NCBI GenBank assembly: GCA_037308085.1
Contig: CP147779.1
Coordinates: 768,001 to 832,000 of the forward strand
Length of the DNA stretch: 64,000 nucleotides
DNA from: Promethearchaeati archaeon SRVP18_Atabeyarchaeia-1
GTDB lineage: Archaea; Asgardarchaeota; Atabeyarchaeia; Atabeyarchaeales; Atabeyarchaeaceae
Direction: 5' to 3'
Shown here: positions 13,109 to 27,427 of the stretch, piece by piece
Position numbering within the stretch: the first letter of the stretch is position 1
Layout of the letters: each line of letters opens with the position of its first letter
Made by a program: the position numbers and the translations under genes
Notes under the pieces: generated by a model
What the model saw: only the letters and a program-made list of their open reading frames with translations
What the model was told of the DNA's origin: nothing
Databases searched by the model: none

Positions 13109-13384
13109 CTAGCGAAATGCTATAATAACCCTGTCGACGGCGGGCTCGCAGATCTTACGTACACCGTGGACTCCGGGTTCGTAGCGGGCTTTCACTAAGC
13201 CAGCTTCTTCAAGAATCTTGATCTGCGCTGATATGTTTGCCTCAGTCTGGCTCAGAGTGAGTGCGATTCTGCTGACATCGATTCCTCTTCTCTGAAGCAG
13301 TTTCATTATCTCCCATCGTGTCGGAGATGCAAGGGCTTTGGCCAGTTTGGACACGTCATCGCCGCTGATCTCGATCTCGGACAT
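13109..13384 (-). CDS. ArsR-family winged-helix regulator
   Basis: AKALASPTRWEIM...ISAQIKILEEAGLV. Confidence 0.85.
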   Translation of the reverse strand: MSEIEISGDDVSKLAKALASPTRWEIMKLLQRRGIDVSRIALTLSQTEANISAQIKILEEAGLVKARYEPGVHGVRKICEPAVDRVIIAFR

Positions 13385-13553: not shown

Positions 13554-14547
13554 TTGCTCTTGATGGCGAGAGATGATTTCACCCAATTCATGAAACCTCT
13601 AAGAAGGAGGTATCCAGAGATTCGCTCAGCAAGGATCTTCAGAACGATAGACGACATGGACACGAAGATACTTGGATCAATAGAGCTAGGGATGCGGAGA
13701 TTCGAGTTTGTTCCAATAGAAGAGTTGCTGAAGATGACTAGGCTTTCGAGGAACGACCTTGACTTCCGTCTTTCAAAGCTTCTCAAGAAGGAGTTGGCTA
13801 GACGCTGGGTTGGTTCGTACGTTGGCTTTGAAGTTAGTCAGGTTGGCTATGACTGCCTAGCGTTTCATGCGTTAGTCAAGGAGAACGTGCTGGAAGCTAT
13901 AGGTCCGCCCGTGGGCGTCGGGAAGGAATGCACATGCCGCCAACTACGGCCTGCAGAGTGGTCAGCAGTGCACTGAGTCTGACGTCTACAGGGTTTCATT
14001 GACCTCAGGGGAACCCGCAGTCATCAAGCTCCACAGACATGGCAGAACGAGTTTCCGAACTGTAAGGAGGACAAGGGGATATGTAGCTGACAGAAGGCAT
14101 ACATCCTGGCTGTATATCTCGAGACTGGCAGCGACAAGAGAATATTTGGGGCTTCAGAGGCTCTACCCTGCCGGGGTATCCGTTCCCAAACCCATTGCCC
14201 AGAACAGGCATGCTATTGTAATGGGGGTAATCGAAGGTAACTCACTGGCGGAGTGCCATGTCCTGCGCAGACCTTCCAGAATGCTAGATGAAATCATCGA
14301 GAATATTAAGAAGGCCTACATCAAGGCTGACATTATTCATGCAGATCTGAGCGAGTATAATGTTCTGGTGACGCCGAAACTCAAGACTCTAATTATCGAT
14401 TGGCCTCAATGGATTAGCTCAAACCATCCCAACTGGCGCTTCTACCTTGAGAGAGATCTGACGAACATACTGAATTTCTTCGAAAGAAAATTCGGAATAA
14501 GGAAGGAACTCTCAGAAGTTTTTGCTTACGTGACGTCTCCCAAGTGA
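13554..14547 (+). CDS. rio2: RIO2 serine/threonine kinase, interrupted by a 49-nt insertion
   Basis: wHTH (MRRFEFVP, GYDCLA) in ORF 13554-13976 and kinase core (KLHRHGRTSF, HADLSEYN, IIDWPQ) in ORF 13999-14547; removing 13929-13977 restores GVGKESDVY in frame. Confidence 0.88.
13929..13977 (+). other. Candidate BHB-like mRNA intron in rio2 (49 nt)
   Basis: Terminal TGCAC/GTGCA stem, exon-exon pairing GCGTCGG/CTGACGT and an in-frame TGA inside; precise excision repairs the P-loop. Confidence 0.6.
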
Positions 14548-15167: not shown

Positions 15168-16175
15168 TTAGGCTGGGCGTATGTTCGTCTGTTCTGTTCG
15201 AAGTGGGGTTGGTTGGTTCTCTTTTGGTTGTTTCTCTGTTCTGTGTTTCTCATAGTATACTCTCGTCCAGTAACCTCGCGTTGGTTTTTGAATACCGAGT
15301 CTATCACATCTTCTCGTTACCGCTCCATCTGTAACGTTGTACCTGGTAGCAATGTGTATCAAGGGCATTTCTTGCACTAATCGTTCTGGTTCTTCCTTCG
15401 TGATTGCTCTCCATTCACTCTGTAGTTCTCTTCTTCTTTGAATCTTCTCGGGTGTGTGAGCTTCAGCGGCTCTACGTGCTTTTTCCTTTGGATCACATGG
15501 AAACCATCGTTTTCTAGGCATGCTCTGAGTGTAGTTCTTCATCATCTCATTGAACAACCTGGCACCAAGGCACATGATGCATTCAGTTCCCTTTGTCTTT
15601 CGACCAAGTATCACTTCTTCGTCTGCGCGTCTATGAATCCTGTATCCCAGATCAAACCTATCTTTGACCTGTTCCACAAATCGGATGTTGCCAGACGTGA
15701 TCGCTGTCGTATGCTGTATTCCGTCGCCGTCATAGTAGCCTAGTAGAAAGGCGAGTTCCAGATCTCTGCGAGGCAACTTCGGATATTCAATTCGCTTTGA
15801 TTTTCTAGGGATAAGTCCATGTGTCAGAAGATCGTTGCCCATTTTTCTGCAGGCGAAGATAATCAGAGTTGATACCTTTCCGTTCTTCTCCGTCACGTGT
15901 TTCTTTTTGTCTTTGTTAAGCCCAAGGCAGTCGCAGTACTTTTCGATCGTTTCTTCGTCTTTTTGACTAAGCTTCATTACAATTTCCATTGCTCCAGTTC
16001 TAGAGTCTCTCTTGATGCAGCCGTCGGCGAAGAGAAATCCTAGCCAATATGCTTTCTCTTTCGTGTCTATTTTGCCAAAGTAATTGAGTTTCAGGTTCGG
16101 GTGGACTGTATTCGCTTTCCACTTCTCGTACCATCGCTCCATCTGAACATTCTTCCTCCAGGTGCTCTTTGTCAT
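15168..16175 (-). CDS. Free-standing double-motif LAGLIDADG endonuclease-like protein with C-terminal HTH
   Basis: KAYWLGFLFADG and AFLLGYYDGDG motifs; C-terminal LIHIATRYNVTDGAVTRRCDRLGI; start uncertain (up to 16274). Confidence 0.8.
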   Translation of the reverse strand: MTKSTWRKNVQMERWYEKWKANTVHPNLKLNYFGKIDTKEKAYWLGFLFADGCIKRDSRTGAMEIVMKLSQKDEETIEKYCDCLGLNKDKKKHVTEKNGKVSTLIIFACRKMGNDLLTHGLIPRKSKRIEYPKLPRRDLELAFLLGYYDGDGIQHTTAITSGNIRFVEQVKDRFDLGYRIHRRADEEVILGRKTKGTECIMCLGARLFNEMMKNYTQSMPRKRWFPCDPKEKARRAAEAHTPEKIQRRRELQSEWRAITKEEPERLVQEMPLIHIATRYNVTDGAVTRRCDRLGIQKPTRGYWTRVYYEKHRTEKQPKENQPTPLRTEQTNIRPA

Positions 16176-16308
16176 ATGGTTTTTCAGTCCCTTCTCTCTC
16201 TGCAACGTTCTACGAGTCACAGCGCCTGGGGAAAGGCTTCGCACAGTGAATACATCCTTTAATGTGCACATCACAGGAATGCTCGCTAGCTATGGTTGCT
16301 TTCTCAAC

Positions 16309-24038: not shown

Positions 24039-24240
24039 ATTACTGGTCTCCTATCACAGTGTTGATCCTTCTCATTTACTCTCAAAGACTAGCATGATTT
24101 GACTCCAGCTTTTTATAAACTTGTGTGTTTAGGCAATCGAGAAGGCAAGGCATTCGGTCGATTCCCGCAACACCAGAAAGAATCCACGCGCAGCTCCCAC
24201 TACCAGCAACCCACGGATGAAATGCCCCGAGAAACAAAGA

Positions 24241-24418
24241 GTGGCAACAATCCGTGGTCGGAACGGGAACGGGTGTTACCCCTCGCCTATGACCGGCGGC
24301 GCACCGCCAGCCGTCCAAGCTTCCCGAGAGATCTCTCATCTCAGTACAACTTGCACCGCGCGAGGACTTAACTCTCACGGCCGAGGTTGGCACCTGGTCG
24401 GCTCTCACGTGTTGCCAC
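24241..24418 (-). rRNA. rrf: 5S rRNA gene, circularly permuted (3' half 24373-24304, UGCG linker, 5' half 24299-24251), with BHB flanks
   Basis: Joining CCGCCGGUCAUAGGCGAGGGGUAACACCCGUUCCCGUUCCGACCACGGA (49 nt) to AGUUAAGUCCUCGCGCGG...GUACUG...CGGGAAG...GGCUGGCGG (70 nt) gives a 119-nt archaeal 5S with helix I CCGCCGGUC/GGCUGGCGG and helix II GCGAGGG/UCCUCGC. Confidence 0.9.
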
Positions 24419-24445
24419 CAAAGGTACGTGTATTATCAAAGAATA

Positions 24446-25449: not shown

Positions 25450-26786
25450 ATGCCGAACACCTACGTTTTCGTTCTTTGCAGGTGCCGCAGACCTCTGATG
25501 CCAACAACTGCACCCAAAGCCAGGATTCTACTGAAACAGAACAGAGCAAAGGTTTTCCGTCTATATCCCTTCACGATACAGCTTAACTATGAGACCCATC
25601 ACCAGGCGCAACCTATGGAGATACGGATCGACTATGGTGCCAAGACGCATGGCATCGCTCTAGTACAGCAGTGCAAAACACAAGAGCGAGCAGTCTTTCT
25701 CGGTGAGGCGCAGCAACGAAAAGATGTCAAGAAGAAAATGGACATAAGGAGGGAAATGCGCAGACTGAGAAGATACAGGAACACTCGTTACAGAAAACCA
25801 CGGTTCAGCAACCGTAGACGACCAGAAGGCTGGGTGCCGCCAACTATAGCCCAAAGAGTCGAGTCAATCACAAGAATCGCGCGAACTCTAGAGAAGCTAA
25901 CTTCAATTACCAGCGTAGTAACTGAAATCGGCATGTTTGATGCACAGAAGATGAACGACCCAGAGATAGAGGGTATCGAATACCAGCAAGGTCCTGGTCA
26001 TGGCTCGAAAACAAGAAACAAGCGACCCTAGCGTACTTCAACTACATATGTCAATACTGTGGAGCAGAAAGGGGCATAATGACAGTAGACCATGTTATGC
26101 CGACAAGTAAGGGGGGCACAGACACCTGGAACAACCTAACATGTGCGTGCTTGGCCTGCAACAAGAAGAAGAACGACCGTACCCCAGAAGAAGCAAATAT
26201 GTAATACCCCAAAACGGTAAAACCAAGAGAAGCGCATTTCCTGAAGTTTTGTGCACTAATGCAATCAGGAAAAACCAGACTTGTCAACGAACTGAAGAAA
26301 CTTGCACCTACACAAACGGTATACGGCTGGCAGACAAAACGGAACCGGGAGACAGCAAATCTGCCGAAGACTCACTACTTCGATGCACTCTGCACGAGAA
26401 ACATAAACCAAAAACCAATTAGATTGACAGGCAATGTTTACTGGATCAGACTCAGGAGACGCAACATAAGGCGAACACATCTCGTGAATCCCATGAAAGG
26501 AGGGAAGAGGCAGCCTTACAACCAAAATAAGGAACTTCAAGGATATAGGAAAGGCGACCTAGTTCGAACTCCACACGGACTAGCATACATAGTAGGAATT
26601 CTGACCTCAGGACAGCTTCAATATCAGACCATCTACGGACAAATACAGAAAAGAATCCCCAAGCAAGTCAAGCTAGTCGAGAGCACAAGAGGTGTCCGCT
26701 TCTTTCCAATGAAGAAAGAAGCCCGAGCCAAGTATCGTTTTGGAGACCAAGCGAGGCCTTCAGAAACTAGGGTCAGTGATGCTTAA
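25450..26786 (+). pseudogene. iscB: IscB (PLMP, RuvC, HNH) with a frameshift and a premature stop
   Basis: PLMPTT, IDYGAK, bridge helix, EIGMFD, HNH VDHVMP..KGG.D..NNL and HYFDA; 1-nt deletion near 26005 and TAA near 26202 relative to the paralog at 49264. Confidence 0.88.
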
Positions 26787-27020
26787 TGAGGCGTTAGGCA
26801 TATGAACTATGTCTGGGAGGTTAGCTCAAATACCACCACGGAATGCATGCTCTAGTTCCGTGCTCTGGGAGTCTGGGTGAAGGAAAGCTTCCGCCAAGCC
26901 CAGGGTGCTCTACTCTCAGCGGCAACGTGAGAGCAACATCATCTAGACACACAGCTTCTCCCGACTTACCCGAAGAGCGACCTAACCCCGCTGATGTGCA
27001 CGACAGGATCAGTGGGAGAT
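26737..27020 (+). ncRNA. omega-RNA scaffold downstream of iscB
   Basis: ACTAGGGTCAG, ACTATGTCTGGGAG/CTCCCGAC, CACGGAA-TGCATGCTCTAG-TTCCGTG and ACCCGAAG; homologous to 50326-50607 with compensatory changes. Confidence 0.8.
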
Positions 27021-27330: not shown

Positions 27331-27427
27331 GGGCGGGTAGTCTAGATTGGTATGATACAGACGGTGAAGTCCGTCGTCAATGTGGCTCGGGACCACGTGG
27401 TCGTGGGTTCAAATCCCACCTCGCCCA
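27331..27427 (+). tRNA. tRNA-Pro(CGG) with a 23-nt intron at 27/28 (27359-27381)
   Basis: GGGCGGG/CTCGCCC acceptor; BHB TGAT/GTCA with GACGG/CCGTC; spliced CGTGG-CTCGGGA-CCACG; GTGGGTTCAAATCCCAC. Confidence 0.92.

What the first reader, a model, noticed from the sequence alone, without database searches (positions are those of the whole stretch)
13914..13986. Candidate BHB-type mRNA intron in the P-loop of RIO2 kinase
The conserved GVGKESDVY motif is split exactly between GAA and TCT by 49 nt that shift the frame and contain a TGA. Both halves are otherwise intact. The insertion folds back (GCAC/GTGC) and the exons pair (GCGTCGG/CTGACGT), placing the cut points in 3-nt bulges AA^T and AG^T. 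The central helix AAGG/ACTG is imperfect (two pairs flanked by A-G and G-A), but several tRNA introns in this window also have terminal G-A mismatches. Established: the well-validated archaeal mRNA intron is in crenarchaeal cbf5, another ribosome-biogenesis gene. Inference: splicing could couple RIO2 expression to EndA activity.
Basis: partly seen in the sequence, partly recalled or inferred. Interest (0 to 1): 0.8.

Follow-up and report, generated by a model that had tools for sequence, protein, structure and literature searches.

The report
tRNA-type intron splits Asgard rio2
The only Rio2 ribosome-assembly kinase gene of this Asgard (Atabeyarchaeia) archaeon is broken inside its ATP-binding loop by a 49-base insert shaped like a tRNA intron, so a working kinase very probably needs the mRNA to be cut and rejoined, which has been shown experimentally for hardly any archaeal protein gene.

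Summary
The rio2 gene (Rio2_N plus RIO domain) is interrupted after GVGKE by 49 nt (13929-13977), and exon 2 resumes with SDVY in another frame.

- **Real and conserved.** The insert sits at the same codon boundary in all 14 distinct close relatives found. These come from 3 species genomes and 11 metagenome contigs from many samples.
- **Always disruptive.** Insert lengths are 45, 46, 48, 49 and 52 nt. Each one shifts the frame or carries an in-frame stop.
- **Absent elsewhere.** More than 100 more distant rio2 genes (59% identity or less) are uninterrupted.
- **Not a pseudogene.** Both exons are under strong purifying selection, and this is the only rio2 copy in the genome.
- **Conserved fold.** A 12-bp exon-exon helix, a 2-4-pair central helix, a 3-nt AAU bulge and an inner intron helix are kept, with compensatory changes.
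- **Cut sites fit.** The only cuts that restore the frame are the ones bulge-helix-bulge geometry predicts.
- **Enzymes present.** The genome encodes EndA alpha and beta subunits and the RtcB ligase.

The motif is relaxed, most of all in this genome. No RNA evidence could be obtained.

Best reading, at about 0.8: an endonuclease-spliced mRNA intron of the kind known from crenarchaeal cbf5. Earlier notes of this scan report what appears to be the same rio2 intron in two other genomes, and similar introns in other genes of this genome.

The parts
13656..13928 (+). rio2 exon 1: winged-helix Rio2_N domain and the first half of the glycine-rich ATP-binding loop, ending ...GVGKE
   Evidence: Pfam PF09202 Rio2_N, 67 bits. 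tblastn colinear with uninterrupted homologues from residue 1-2.
13929..13977 (+). 49-nt intervening sequence (phase 0). It shifts the frame by +1 and puts TGA (13974-13976) in the exon-1 frame. The equivalent register 13930-13978 gives the same product.
   Evidence: Same site in 14 relatives with lengths 45-52 nt. No other copy in the genome.
13978..14547 (+). rio2 exon 2: second half of the P-loop (SDVY...) and the rest of the RIO kinase domain, stop codon included
   Evidence: Pfam PF01163 RIO, 180 bits. It aligns from its first residue to Ser107 of human RIOK2, chain 6fdm_A.
13911..13922 (+). 5' strand of the outer exon-exon helix (codons V-G-V-G)
   Evidence: Pairs 12/12 with 13978-13989. 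11-12 of 12 pairs in all 14 intron-bearing genes, against 5-11 (most often 8) in 60 intron-less homologues.
13978..13989 (+). 3' strand of the outer exon-exon helix (codons S-D-V-Y)
   Evidence: Compensatory C-G / U-A / U-G at 13919:13981.
13923..13926 (+). 5' strand of the central helix (AAGG, invariant in all 14 sequences)
   Evidence: Pairs with 13972-13975 (ACUG) as A.G, A-U, G-C, G.A here. Relatives have 3 or 4 standard pairs.
13927..13929 (+). 5' bulge AA^U with the predicted 5' cut after 13928
   Evidence: Unpaired in the consensus fold. AAU in 13 of 14 sequences, AAA in one.
13930..13937 (+). 5' strand of the inner intron helix (GCAC, one unpaired A, UGC)
   Evidence: Pairs with 13965-13971. 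Four of its pairs show changes on both sides among relatives.
13965..13971 (+). 3' strand of the inner intron helix
13972..13975 (+). 3' strand of the central helix (ACUG here; CCUC, CCUG or CCUU in relatives)
   Evidence: The ACUG form is shared by four diverged lineages (G000, L123, L124, L126).
13976..13978 (+). 3' bulge AG^U with the predicted 3' cut after 13977. U13978 can also pair with G13922.

Best explanation

Inferred mechanism:
1. In the transcript, the codons for V-G-V-G pair with the codons for S-D-V-Y. This 12-bp helix brings the two exon ends together.
2. The first and last parts of the insert form an inner helix.
3. Between the two helices lies a short central helix (AAGG with ACUG or CCUC), flanked by the bulges AA^U and AN^U.
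4. The heteromeric (alpha-beta) splicing endonuclease EndA cuts after the second base of each bulge, that is after 13928 and after 13977.
5. RtcB joins the exons, and probably circularises the 49-nt intron.
6. The mature mRNA encodes a 280-residue Rio2 with an intact GVGKESDVY ATP-binding loop.
7. Unspliced mRNA can give only a roughly 105-residue winged-helix fragment.

Shown here: the insert, its conservation in position with free change in its middle, the conserved fold with compensatory changes, selection on both exons, the single gene copy, and the presence of the enzymes.

Inferred: the cleavage and the ligation themselves.

The intron was most probably gained once, on the stem of the Atabeyarchaeia-like clade. 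The site's protein motif already gave partial exon-exon complementarity.
For: 1. **Position conserved, content free.** All 3 species genomes of the class carry an insert at the same codon boundary, and so do the 11 further distinct metagenome or assembly contigs examined. Lengths are 45, 46, 48, 49 and 52 nt, and the middle of the insert is unalignable.
2. **Always disruptive.** The 46, 49 and 52-nt forms shift the frame. The 45 and 48-nt forms carry TGA or TAA in frame.
3. **Sharp phylogenetic boundary.** In the protein database every relative at 71% identity or more is a truncated call of 113-204 aa with the RIO domain only. Nearly every listed relative at 59% or less is about 295 aa with Rio2_N plus RIO. 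Of the 110 rio2 loci examined (30 from relatives' genomes, 80 from metagenomes), only the three class genomes and four metagenome contigs give two HSPs in different frames; the rest match as a single HSP, uninterrupted wherever they span the site.
4. **Selection on the exons.** Non-synonymous differences are 0.06-0.19 while synonymous sites are saturated (0.74-0.93) between lineages. dN/dS is 0.04-0.22 within one cluster. G000 keeps 89% of the residues that are invariant in the others, no fewer than the other lineages keep.
5. **Single copy.** There is one Rio2_N match in the genome. The other RIO hits are Rio1-like or weak.
6. **Structure.** The consensus fold has an outer helix of 12+2 bp, a central helix, a 3-nt bulge and an inner helix of 4+4 bp. 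90% of cells are paired against 34-44% when partners are slid. Six pairs change on both sides, and no shuffle of 500 reaches the covariation score.
7. **Exon-exon helix above background.** It has 11-12 of 12 pairs in all 14 intron-bearing genes, against 5-11 in 60 intron-less homologues.
8. **Cut sites fit.** Cuts placed by BHB geometry, two bases 3' of each strand of the central helix, remove exactly the stretch that restores the frame. The spliced product aligns without a gap through the junction to uninterrupted Rio2.
9. **Enzymes.** An EndA alpha-like gene (209 aa, 102 bits) and a beta-like gene (241 aa, 63 bits) are present, plus RtcB (583 bits). Asgard archaea are reported to have the (alpha-beta)2 EndA with the L1 insert that allows relaxed motifs (PMC5829648).
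10. **Precedent.** cbf5 pre-mRNA introns also often have relaxed motifs (PMC2738675).
Against: - No RNA-level evidence was obtained, either for a spliced junction or for a circular intron.
- The motif is not canonical. The outermost central pair is a mismatch in 13 of 14 sequences.
- In this genome and three relatives the central helix has only two standard pairs, flanked by A.G and G.A. The minimum-free-energy fold leaves that region as a 6x5 internal loop.
- The outer helix is one base out of strict BHB register, because G13922 pairs with U13978. The 3' bulge is therefore 2 nt unless that pair opens.
- My strict genome-wide BHB scan does not pick this site up.
- The RNA helix itself could explain part of the conservation of the SDVY codons.
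Confidence: 0.8

Rival explanations
1. Translational recoding. The ribosome gets across the insert by a programmed frameshift, by stop-codon read-through, or by bypassing as in phage T4 gene 60, without any RNA cutting.
For: In most sequences the exon-2 frame is open through part or all of the insert, so a -1/+2 shift is formally possible. The 49-nt gap is close in size to the 50-nt gap of T4 gene 60 (my own knowledge). cbf5 introns were at first mistaken for frameshifts (PMC2738675).
Against: - No single recoding event fits all relatives. The 46, 49 and 52-nt forms need a frame change, while the 45 and 48-nt forms need read-through of an in-frame stop.
- In G001 the window in which both frames are open is 2 nt.
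- The middle of the insert, where a slippery site would lie, is not conserved.
- The codon after GAA is Cys, not a stop. Take-off and landing codons do not match in G001 or G002.
- Any read-through product would put 15-17 variable residues into the ATP-binding loop.
- Recoding does not explain the compensatory changes in the two helices.
Confidence: 0.05
2. A truly split gene. The winged-helix part and the kinase part are made as two separate proteins, and the hairpin between them has another role, such as transcript stability or translational control.
For: Gene callers and the public annotation treat it this way, as two ORFs with Rio2_N and RIO. A TTG at 13999 could start a 182-aa product.
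Against: - The break lies in the middle of the glycine-rich loop, so neither piece would have a complete ATP site.
- There is no conserved start codon in the exon-2 frame among relatives.
- The two halves abut with exactly the family's spacing once the insert is removed.
- The positions of the bulges relative to the only frame-restoring cuts would be a coincidence repeated in 14 sequences.
Confidence: 0.05
3. A dead or dying gene: a pseudogene broken by a small insertion.
For: The frame is broken, and the BHB of this particular genome is the weakest form seen.
Against: - Both exons are free of stops and frameshifts in all 7 genes that were extracted and translated in full.
- Synonymous sites are saturated while amino acids are conserved.
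- G000 is as conserved as its relatives, and the catalytic motifs HADLSEYN and IDWPQ are intact.
- It is the only rio2 in each of the three genomes.
- The weak central-helix form is shared by four diverged lineages.
Confidence: 0.03
4. An assembly or sequencing artefact.
For: None beyond the fact that this is a genome built from a metagenome.
Against: The same feature appears in a closed genome, in two other species genomes, and in contigs from at least nine independent JGI, ENA and Logan data sets.
Confidence: 0.01

Closest known systems
BHB intron in the cbf5 (pseudouridine synthase) pre-mRNA of Crenarchaeota (Aeropyrum, Sulfolobus, Desulfurococcales; Watanabe 2002, Yoshinari 2006, Yokobori 2009 = PMC2738675)
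   Same: [quoted passage not shown] - A host with a hetero-oligomeric splicing endonuclease.
- A conserved position within one clade and absence outside it.
- Gene callers mis-annotate the gene as split or frameshifted.
   Different: - A different gene (rio2) and a different phylum (Asgard, Atabeyarchaeia).
- The site lies inside a kinase ATP-binding loop.
- Splicing of cbf5 was shown by RT-PCR and in vitro cleavage. Here nothing is shown at the RNA level.
- cbf5 itself shows no break in its TruB_N domain in this genome.
Non-canonical tRNA introns of Atabeyarchaeia and Freyarchaeia (PMC11291895; bioRxiv 10.64898/2026.10.13.758758)
   Same: - Same organisms and the same presumed enzymes.
- Short introns at sites where exon sequence allows the motif to form.
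- Repeated lineage-specific gains.
   Different: The published introns are in tRNA genes. Neither paper mentions introns in protein-coding genes.
Other candidate mRNA BHB introns noted by this scan in the same genome (ahcY, gatE and others) and in other Asgard genomes
   Same: Short inserts that break a conserved protein motif and fold as BHB. I re-found the gatE motif as a strict BHB (central 4/4, helices of 4 and 9 bp) at genome 2219067/2219108. I also saw the AdoHcyase family match break at about 488237-488256.
   Different: The gatE motif is canonical and the rio2 motif is relaxed. The remaining notes were not checked here.
IRE1/RtcB splicing of HAC1/XBP1 mRNA in eukaryotes
   Same: Protein-only endonuclease cuts at two stem-loops in an mRNA, followed by RtcB-type ligation, with a frame change on splicing (my own knowledge; summarised in PMC13149111).
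   Different: The endonuclease and the RNA motif are unrelated, and that splicing is regulated by stress. No evidence of regulation exists here.

Membership tests
Archaeal BHB intron (EndA substrate) | [quoted passage not shown] | tested here: inconclusive
   - The 5' bulge is AAU, 3 nt, in 13 of 14 sequences.
- The central segment is 4 positions long but has only 2 standard pairs here (A.G, A-U, G-C, G.A). It has 3 in nine relatives and 4 in one.
- The 3' bulge is A-N plus a U that can pair with G13922.
- This is a relaxed motif, not the strict one.
Archaeal BHB intron (EndA substrate) | Flanking helices: exon-exon (h) and intron-intron (h') | tested here: met
   The outer helix has 12 bp plus 2-4 more. 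The inner helix has 4+3 bp here and 4+4 in the consensus. Both show changes on both sides.
Archaeal BHB intron (EndA substrate) | Cuts after the second base of each bulge give a functional product | tested here: met
   Cuts after 13928 and 13977 restore GVGKE|SDVY. The spacing to the next conserved Lys matches that of uninterrupted Rio2. G002 excludes the neighbouring register.
Archaeal BHB intron (EndA substrate) | Position conserved among relatives while intron sequence and length vary | tested here: met
   14 distinct sequences with lengths of 45-52 nt. The ends are conserved and the middle is free.
Archaeal BHB intron (EndA substrate) | Splicing endonuclease and RtcB ligase encoded by the host | tested here: met
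   Two PF01974 genes. One has the catalytic His context (DHAPF) and one lacks it, by my reading. RtcB scores 583 bits.
Archaeal BHB intron (EndA substrate) | Excision seen in RNA (spliced junction, circular intron, or in vitro cleavage) | not testable with these tools
   No RNA run holds the locus. The four runs laid gave no cover of rio2.
Rio2 kinase | N-terminal winged helix (Rio2_N) followed by a RIO domain | tested here: met
   PF09202 at 67 bits on exon 1 and PF01163 at 180 bits on exon 2. The best solved relatives are RIOK2 and Rio2.
Rio2 kinase | Continuous glycine-rich ATP-binding loop GxGKES.VY | tested here: met
   Met only after the 49 nt are removed. As encoded in DNA the loop is split.
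Programmed ribosomal frameshift or bypass | A conserved slippery or take-off site and one recoding event that fits all homologues | tested here: not met
   No conserved sequence exists in the region where both frames are open. The 45 and 48-nt forms need no frameshift, only stop read-through. In G001 the window is 2 nt.

The most novel reading that the evidence does not exclude
The rio2 intron is one member of a lineage-wide set of mRNA introns that Atabeyarchaeia, and other Asgard archaea, remove with the tRNA-splicing endonuclease and RtcB. On this reading, the closest archaeal relatives of eukaryotes routinely tolerate and maintain introns in essential protein-coding genes. The splice motif then shapes codon choice in the exons: here there is perfect complementarity between the V-G-V-G and S-D-V-Y codons of a kinase active site. 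A bolder sub-reading is that rio2 splicing links synthesis of a small-subunit maturation factor to the same enzymes that process pre-rRNA.
Probability: 0.55. Interest if true: 0.85.

Novelty: new member of a known kind. Interest (0 to 1): 0.7.

Why it matters
- **Rarity.** In the papers I could search, enzymatic splicing of an archaeal protein-coding mRNA is confirmed only for cbf5 of Crenarchaeota (PMC2738675). The papers on these Asgard genomes describe the excess of tRNA introns but no mRNA introns (PMC11291895; 10.64898/2026.10.13.758758).
- **Asgard relevance.** A conserved intron in the ATP-binding loop of the single rio2 gene shows that the tRNA-splicing machinery very probably acts on an important mRNA in a relative of the eukaryotic ancestor.
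- **Annotation.** Public annotation of these genomes truncates the protein. The kinase is called as a 182-204-residue fragment without its N-terminal domain.
- **How introns settle.** The site gives a concrete, testable case. The protein motif already offered about 8 of 12 exon-exon pairs, and intron-bearing lineages have 11-12.

Tried and rejected
- **RNA evidence.** No RNA holder was listed for the 10-kb stretch. Laying four metatranscriptome runs from the same studies on 20 kb gave no cover of rio2. This says nothing either way.
- **Genome-wide count of mRNA introns.** I scanned both strands for strict BHB geometry combined with an 'excision merges two long open frames' test. Hits were no more frequent than with the 3' partner slid by 1-2 nt, for example 45 against 25-52. 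My ORF criterion is too loose, so the scan cannot count such introns. It did recover gatE. One search timed out, and the downstream peptides printed were off by one.
- **Locating other noted introns.** The strict scan found only gatE convincingly from the offsets in earlier notes. The ahcY break was seen instead through the family search.
- **Mobile element or repeat.** The intron has no other copy in the genome.
- **C/D-box sRNA inside the intron.** CUGA occurs here but not in most relatives, and there is no C box, by my reading. Rejected.
- **Second interrupted site in G026.** The rio2 of G026 was flagged with '1 TAA', but that is only its stop codon.

Full report
**What is in the sequence**

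On the + strand an open frame encodes a Rio2 N-terminal winged helix (PF09202, 67 bits). It runs to GGC GTC GGG AAG GAA (GVGKE), which ends at 13928. A second frame starts at 13978 with TCT GAC GTC TAC (SDVY) and encodes a RIO kinase domain (PF01163, 180 bits) down to the stop at 14545-14547.

The 49 nt between them (13929-13977) shift the frame and place TGA 13974-13976 in the exon-1 frame. Removing them gives a 280-residue protein. That protein aligns without a gap through the junction to uninterrupted Rio2 proteins. Exon 2 aligns from its very first residue to Ser107 of human RIOK2.

**Organism**

The window lies in a closed 2,808,651-bp genome.
- Earlier notes of this scan call it an Asgard archaeon.
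- A close relative's protein is named Candidatus Atabeyarchaeum deiterrae in NCBI.

That paper reports introns in 92-95% of tRNA genes. A 2026 preprint analyses those tRNA introns. Neither mentions introns in protein-coding genes.

**Is it a pseudogene or an artefact?**

No.
- The genome has one Rio2_N match. Its other RIO hits are Rio1-like or weak.
- All three species genomes of the class carry an insert after GVGKE, of 49, 46 and 52 nt.
- A metagenome scan gave four more such contigs.
- In the protein search, every relative at 71% identity or more is a truncated call of 113-204 residues with the RIO domain only. Nearly every listed relative at 59% or less is about 295 residues with both domains.
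- I fetched eight of the truncated ones. All have the insert, seven of them with a new sequence.

In total there are 14 distinct sequences from at least nine independent data sets. Insert lengths are 45, 46, 48, 49 and 52 nt. The 45 and 48-nt forms keep the frame but contain TGA or TAA.

Of the 110 rio2 loci examined (30 from relatives' genomes, 80 from metagenomes), only the three class genomes and four metagenome contigs give two HSPs in different frames. The rest match as a single HSP, uninterrupted wherever they span the site.

Between lineages, synonymous sites are saturated (0.74-0.93 different) while non-synonymous differences are 0.06-0.19. Within one cluster dN/dS is 0.04-0.22 for both exons. 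G000 keeps 89% of the residues that are invariant in the others, as much as any other lineage does.

**The RNA fold**

The single sequence folds into three parts (z = -2.1):
- a 12-bp exon-exon helix (13911-13922 with 13978-13989) plus four more pairs;
- a 6x5 internal loop;
- an inner helix UGCAC/GUGCA.

The consensus fold of the relatives refines this. It has an outer helix, one unpaired A, a central helix of three pairs (A-U, G-C, G-C), a 3-nt bulge AAU, and an inner helix of 4+4 pairs.

On 14 sequences the statistics are as follows:
- 90% of cells are standard pairs, against 34-44% when partners are slid.
- Six pairs change on both sides. Examples are C-G/U-A/U-G at 13931:13970 and at 13919:13981.
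- No shuffle of 500 reaches the covariation score.

These are related sequences, and the structure was derived from them. The numbers therefore support the fold but are not probabilities.

**Exon-exon helix against background**

As an independent control I scored the same 12 exon-exon positions in 60 intron-less rio2 genes. They have 5-11 pairs, most often 8. The intron-bearing genes have 11-12.

So the protein motif itself offers partial complementarity, and the intron-bearing lineages have perfected it.

**Geometry of the cuts**

In a BHB motif each cut falls two bases 3' of its strand of the 4-position central helix. That geometry is established knowledge and is summarised in the preprint read.
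- Take AAGG (13923-26) and ACUG (13972-75) as the central segment.
- The predicted cuts then fall after 13928 and after 13977.
- These are exactly the cuts that restore the frame.
- G002 ends its insert with AC, so in G002 a register one base to the left would change the conserved Glu to Asp.

The motif is relaxed in three ways:
- The outer central pair is A.C or A.G in 13 of 14 sequences.
- In G000 and three relatives (L123, L124, L126) the inner central pair is also G.A, which leaves two standard pairs.
- The outer helix is one base out of strict register, because G13922 pairs with U13978.

Four diverged lineages share the two-pair form. That argues it is tolerated rather than a fresh defect.

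**Enzymes**

The genome encodes two splicing-endonuclease paralogues.
- One has 209 residues, scores 102 bits and has a His in the catalytic context.
- The other has 241 residues, scores 63 bits and lacks that His by my reading. This fits an alpha-beta heteromer.
- RtcB is present as well.

Asgard archaea are reported to carry the (alpha-beta)2 enzyme with the L1 insert linked to broad substrate range (PMC5829648). The cbf5 introns are likewise said to have relaxed motifs (PMC2738675).

**Rivals**

- **Recoding.** It fails because no single event fits both the frame-shifting and the in-frame forms, and because the middle of the insert is not conserved.
- **A truly split kinase.** It would leave neither half with a complete ATP loop, and it does not explain why the bulges sit exactly at the frame-restoring positions.
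- **Pseudogene and artefact.** Both are contradicted above.
- **Repeat.** The insert is not a repeat in this genome.

**Context**

- The AdoHcyase family match in this genome breaks between two frames at about 488237-488256.
- A strict BHB sits in gatE at 2219067/2219108.
- Both agree with earlier notes of this scan.
- cbf5 shows no break in its TruB_N domain.

Earlier notes also report what appears to be the same rio2 intron, in 52-nt forms, in two other genomes, and similar introns in other Asgard genes. I did not rely on those notes.

This breadth makes a rio2-specific regulatory role less likely than a general spread of endonuclease-spliced introns in the lineage. The regulatory idea remains untested.

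**What is missing**

Any RNA or protein evidence. No RNA run holds the locus. My crude genome-wide scan could not separate true mRNA introns from chance.

**Verdict**

This is a conserved, selected, BHB-type intron in the rio2 mRNA, very probably spliced by EndA and RtcB (about 0.8). It is a new member of the kind known from cbf5, in a new gene and a new phylum.

Noticed in passing
window 15168-16274 (-): A 368-residue ORF with a LAGLIDADG-like domain (PF14528, 31.7 bits) lies about 600 nt downstream of rio2. No rRNA or other host gene was recognised around it.
   Followed up: partly
window 13109-13384 (-): An ArsR-type winged-helix gene (PF01022) is transcribed divergently from rio2. The same neighbour is seen next to rio2 in five of the eight relatives' contigs fetched.
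   Followed up: partly
window 24198-24422 (-): Two adjacent sub-threshold 5S rRNA matches (22-24 bits, gathering score 38). This fits other readers' notes of an interrupted or permuted 5S gene.
   Followed up: no
window 27331-27427 (+): A tRNA (39.8 bits) with a 39-nt insertion in the D-arm region. ARAGORN cannot name its anticodon.
   Followed up: no
window 26694-26985 (+): A sub-threshold HEARO (IscB-associated omega RNA) match, 36.9 bits against a gathering score of 83.
   Followed up: no
G000:C1:2219067-2219108 (+), outside the window: A strict BHB (central helix 4/4, outer 4 bp, inner 9 bp) around a 41-nt insert in gatE. Removing it joins ...LLEA to DEEP....
   Followed up: partly
G000:C1:487184-488444 (+), outside the window: The S-adenosylhomocysteine hydrolase family match is split between two reading frames at about 488237-488256.
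   Followed up: partly
L008 (G001) and L129, exon 2 start: Two relatives encode SNVY instead of SDVY. The Asn codon (AAY) makes a U-A pair with the GUU Val codon of the exon-exon helix, so the RNA helix may influence a P-loop residue.
   Followed up: partly
L126:1382-1886: In one relative's contig the gene after rio2 is a TnpB/Cas12f-like ORF (PF07282). The neighbourhood downstream of rio2 is therefore not conserved.
   Followed up: no
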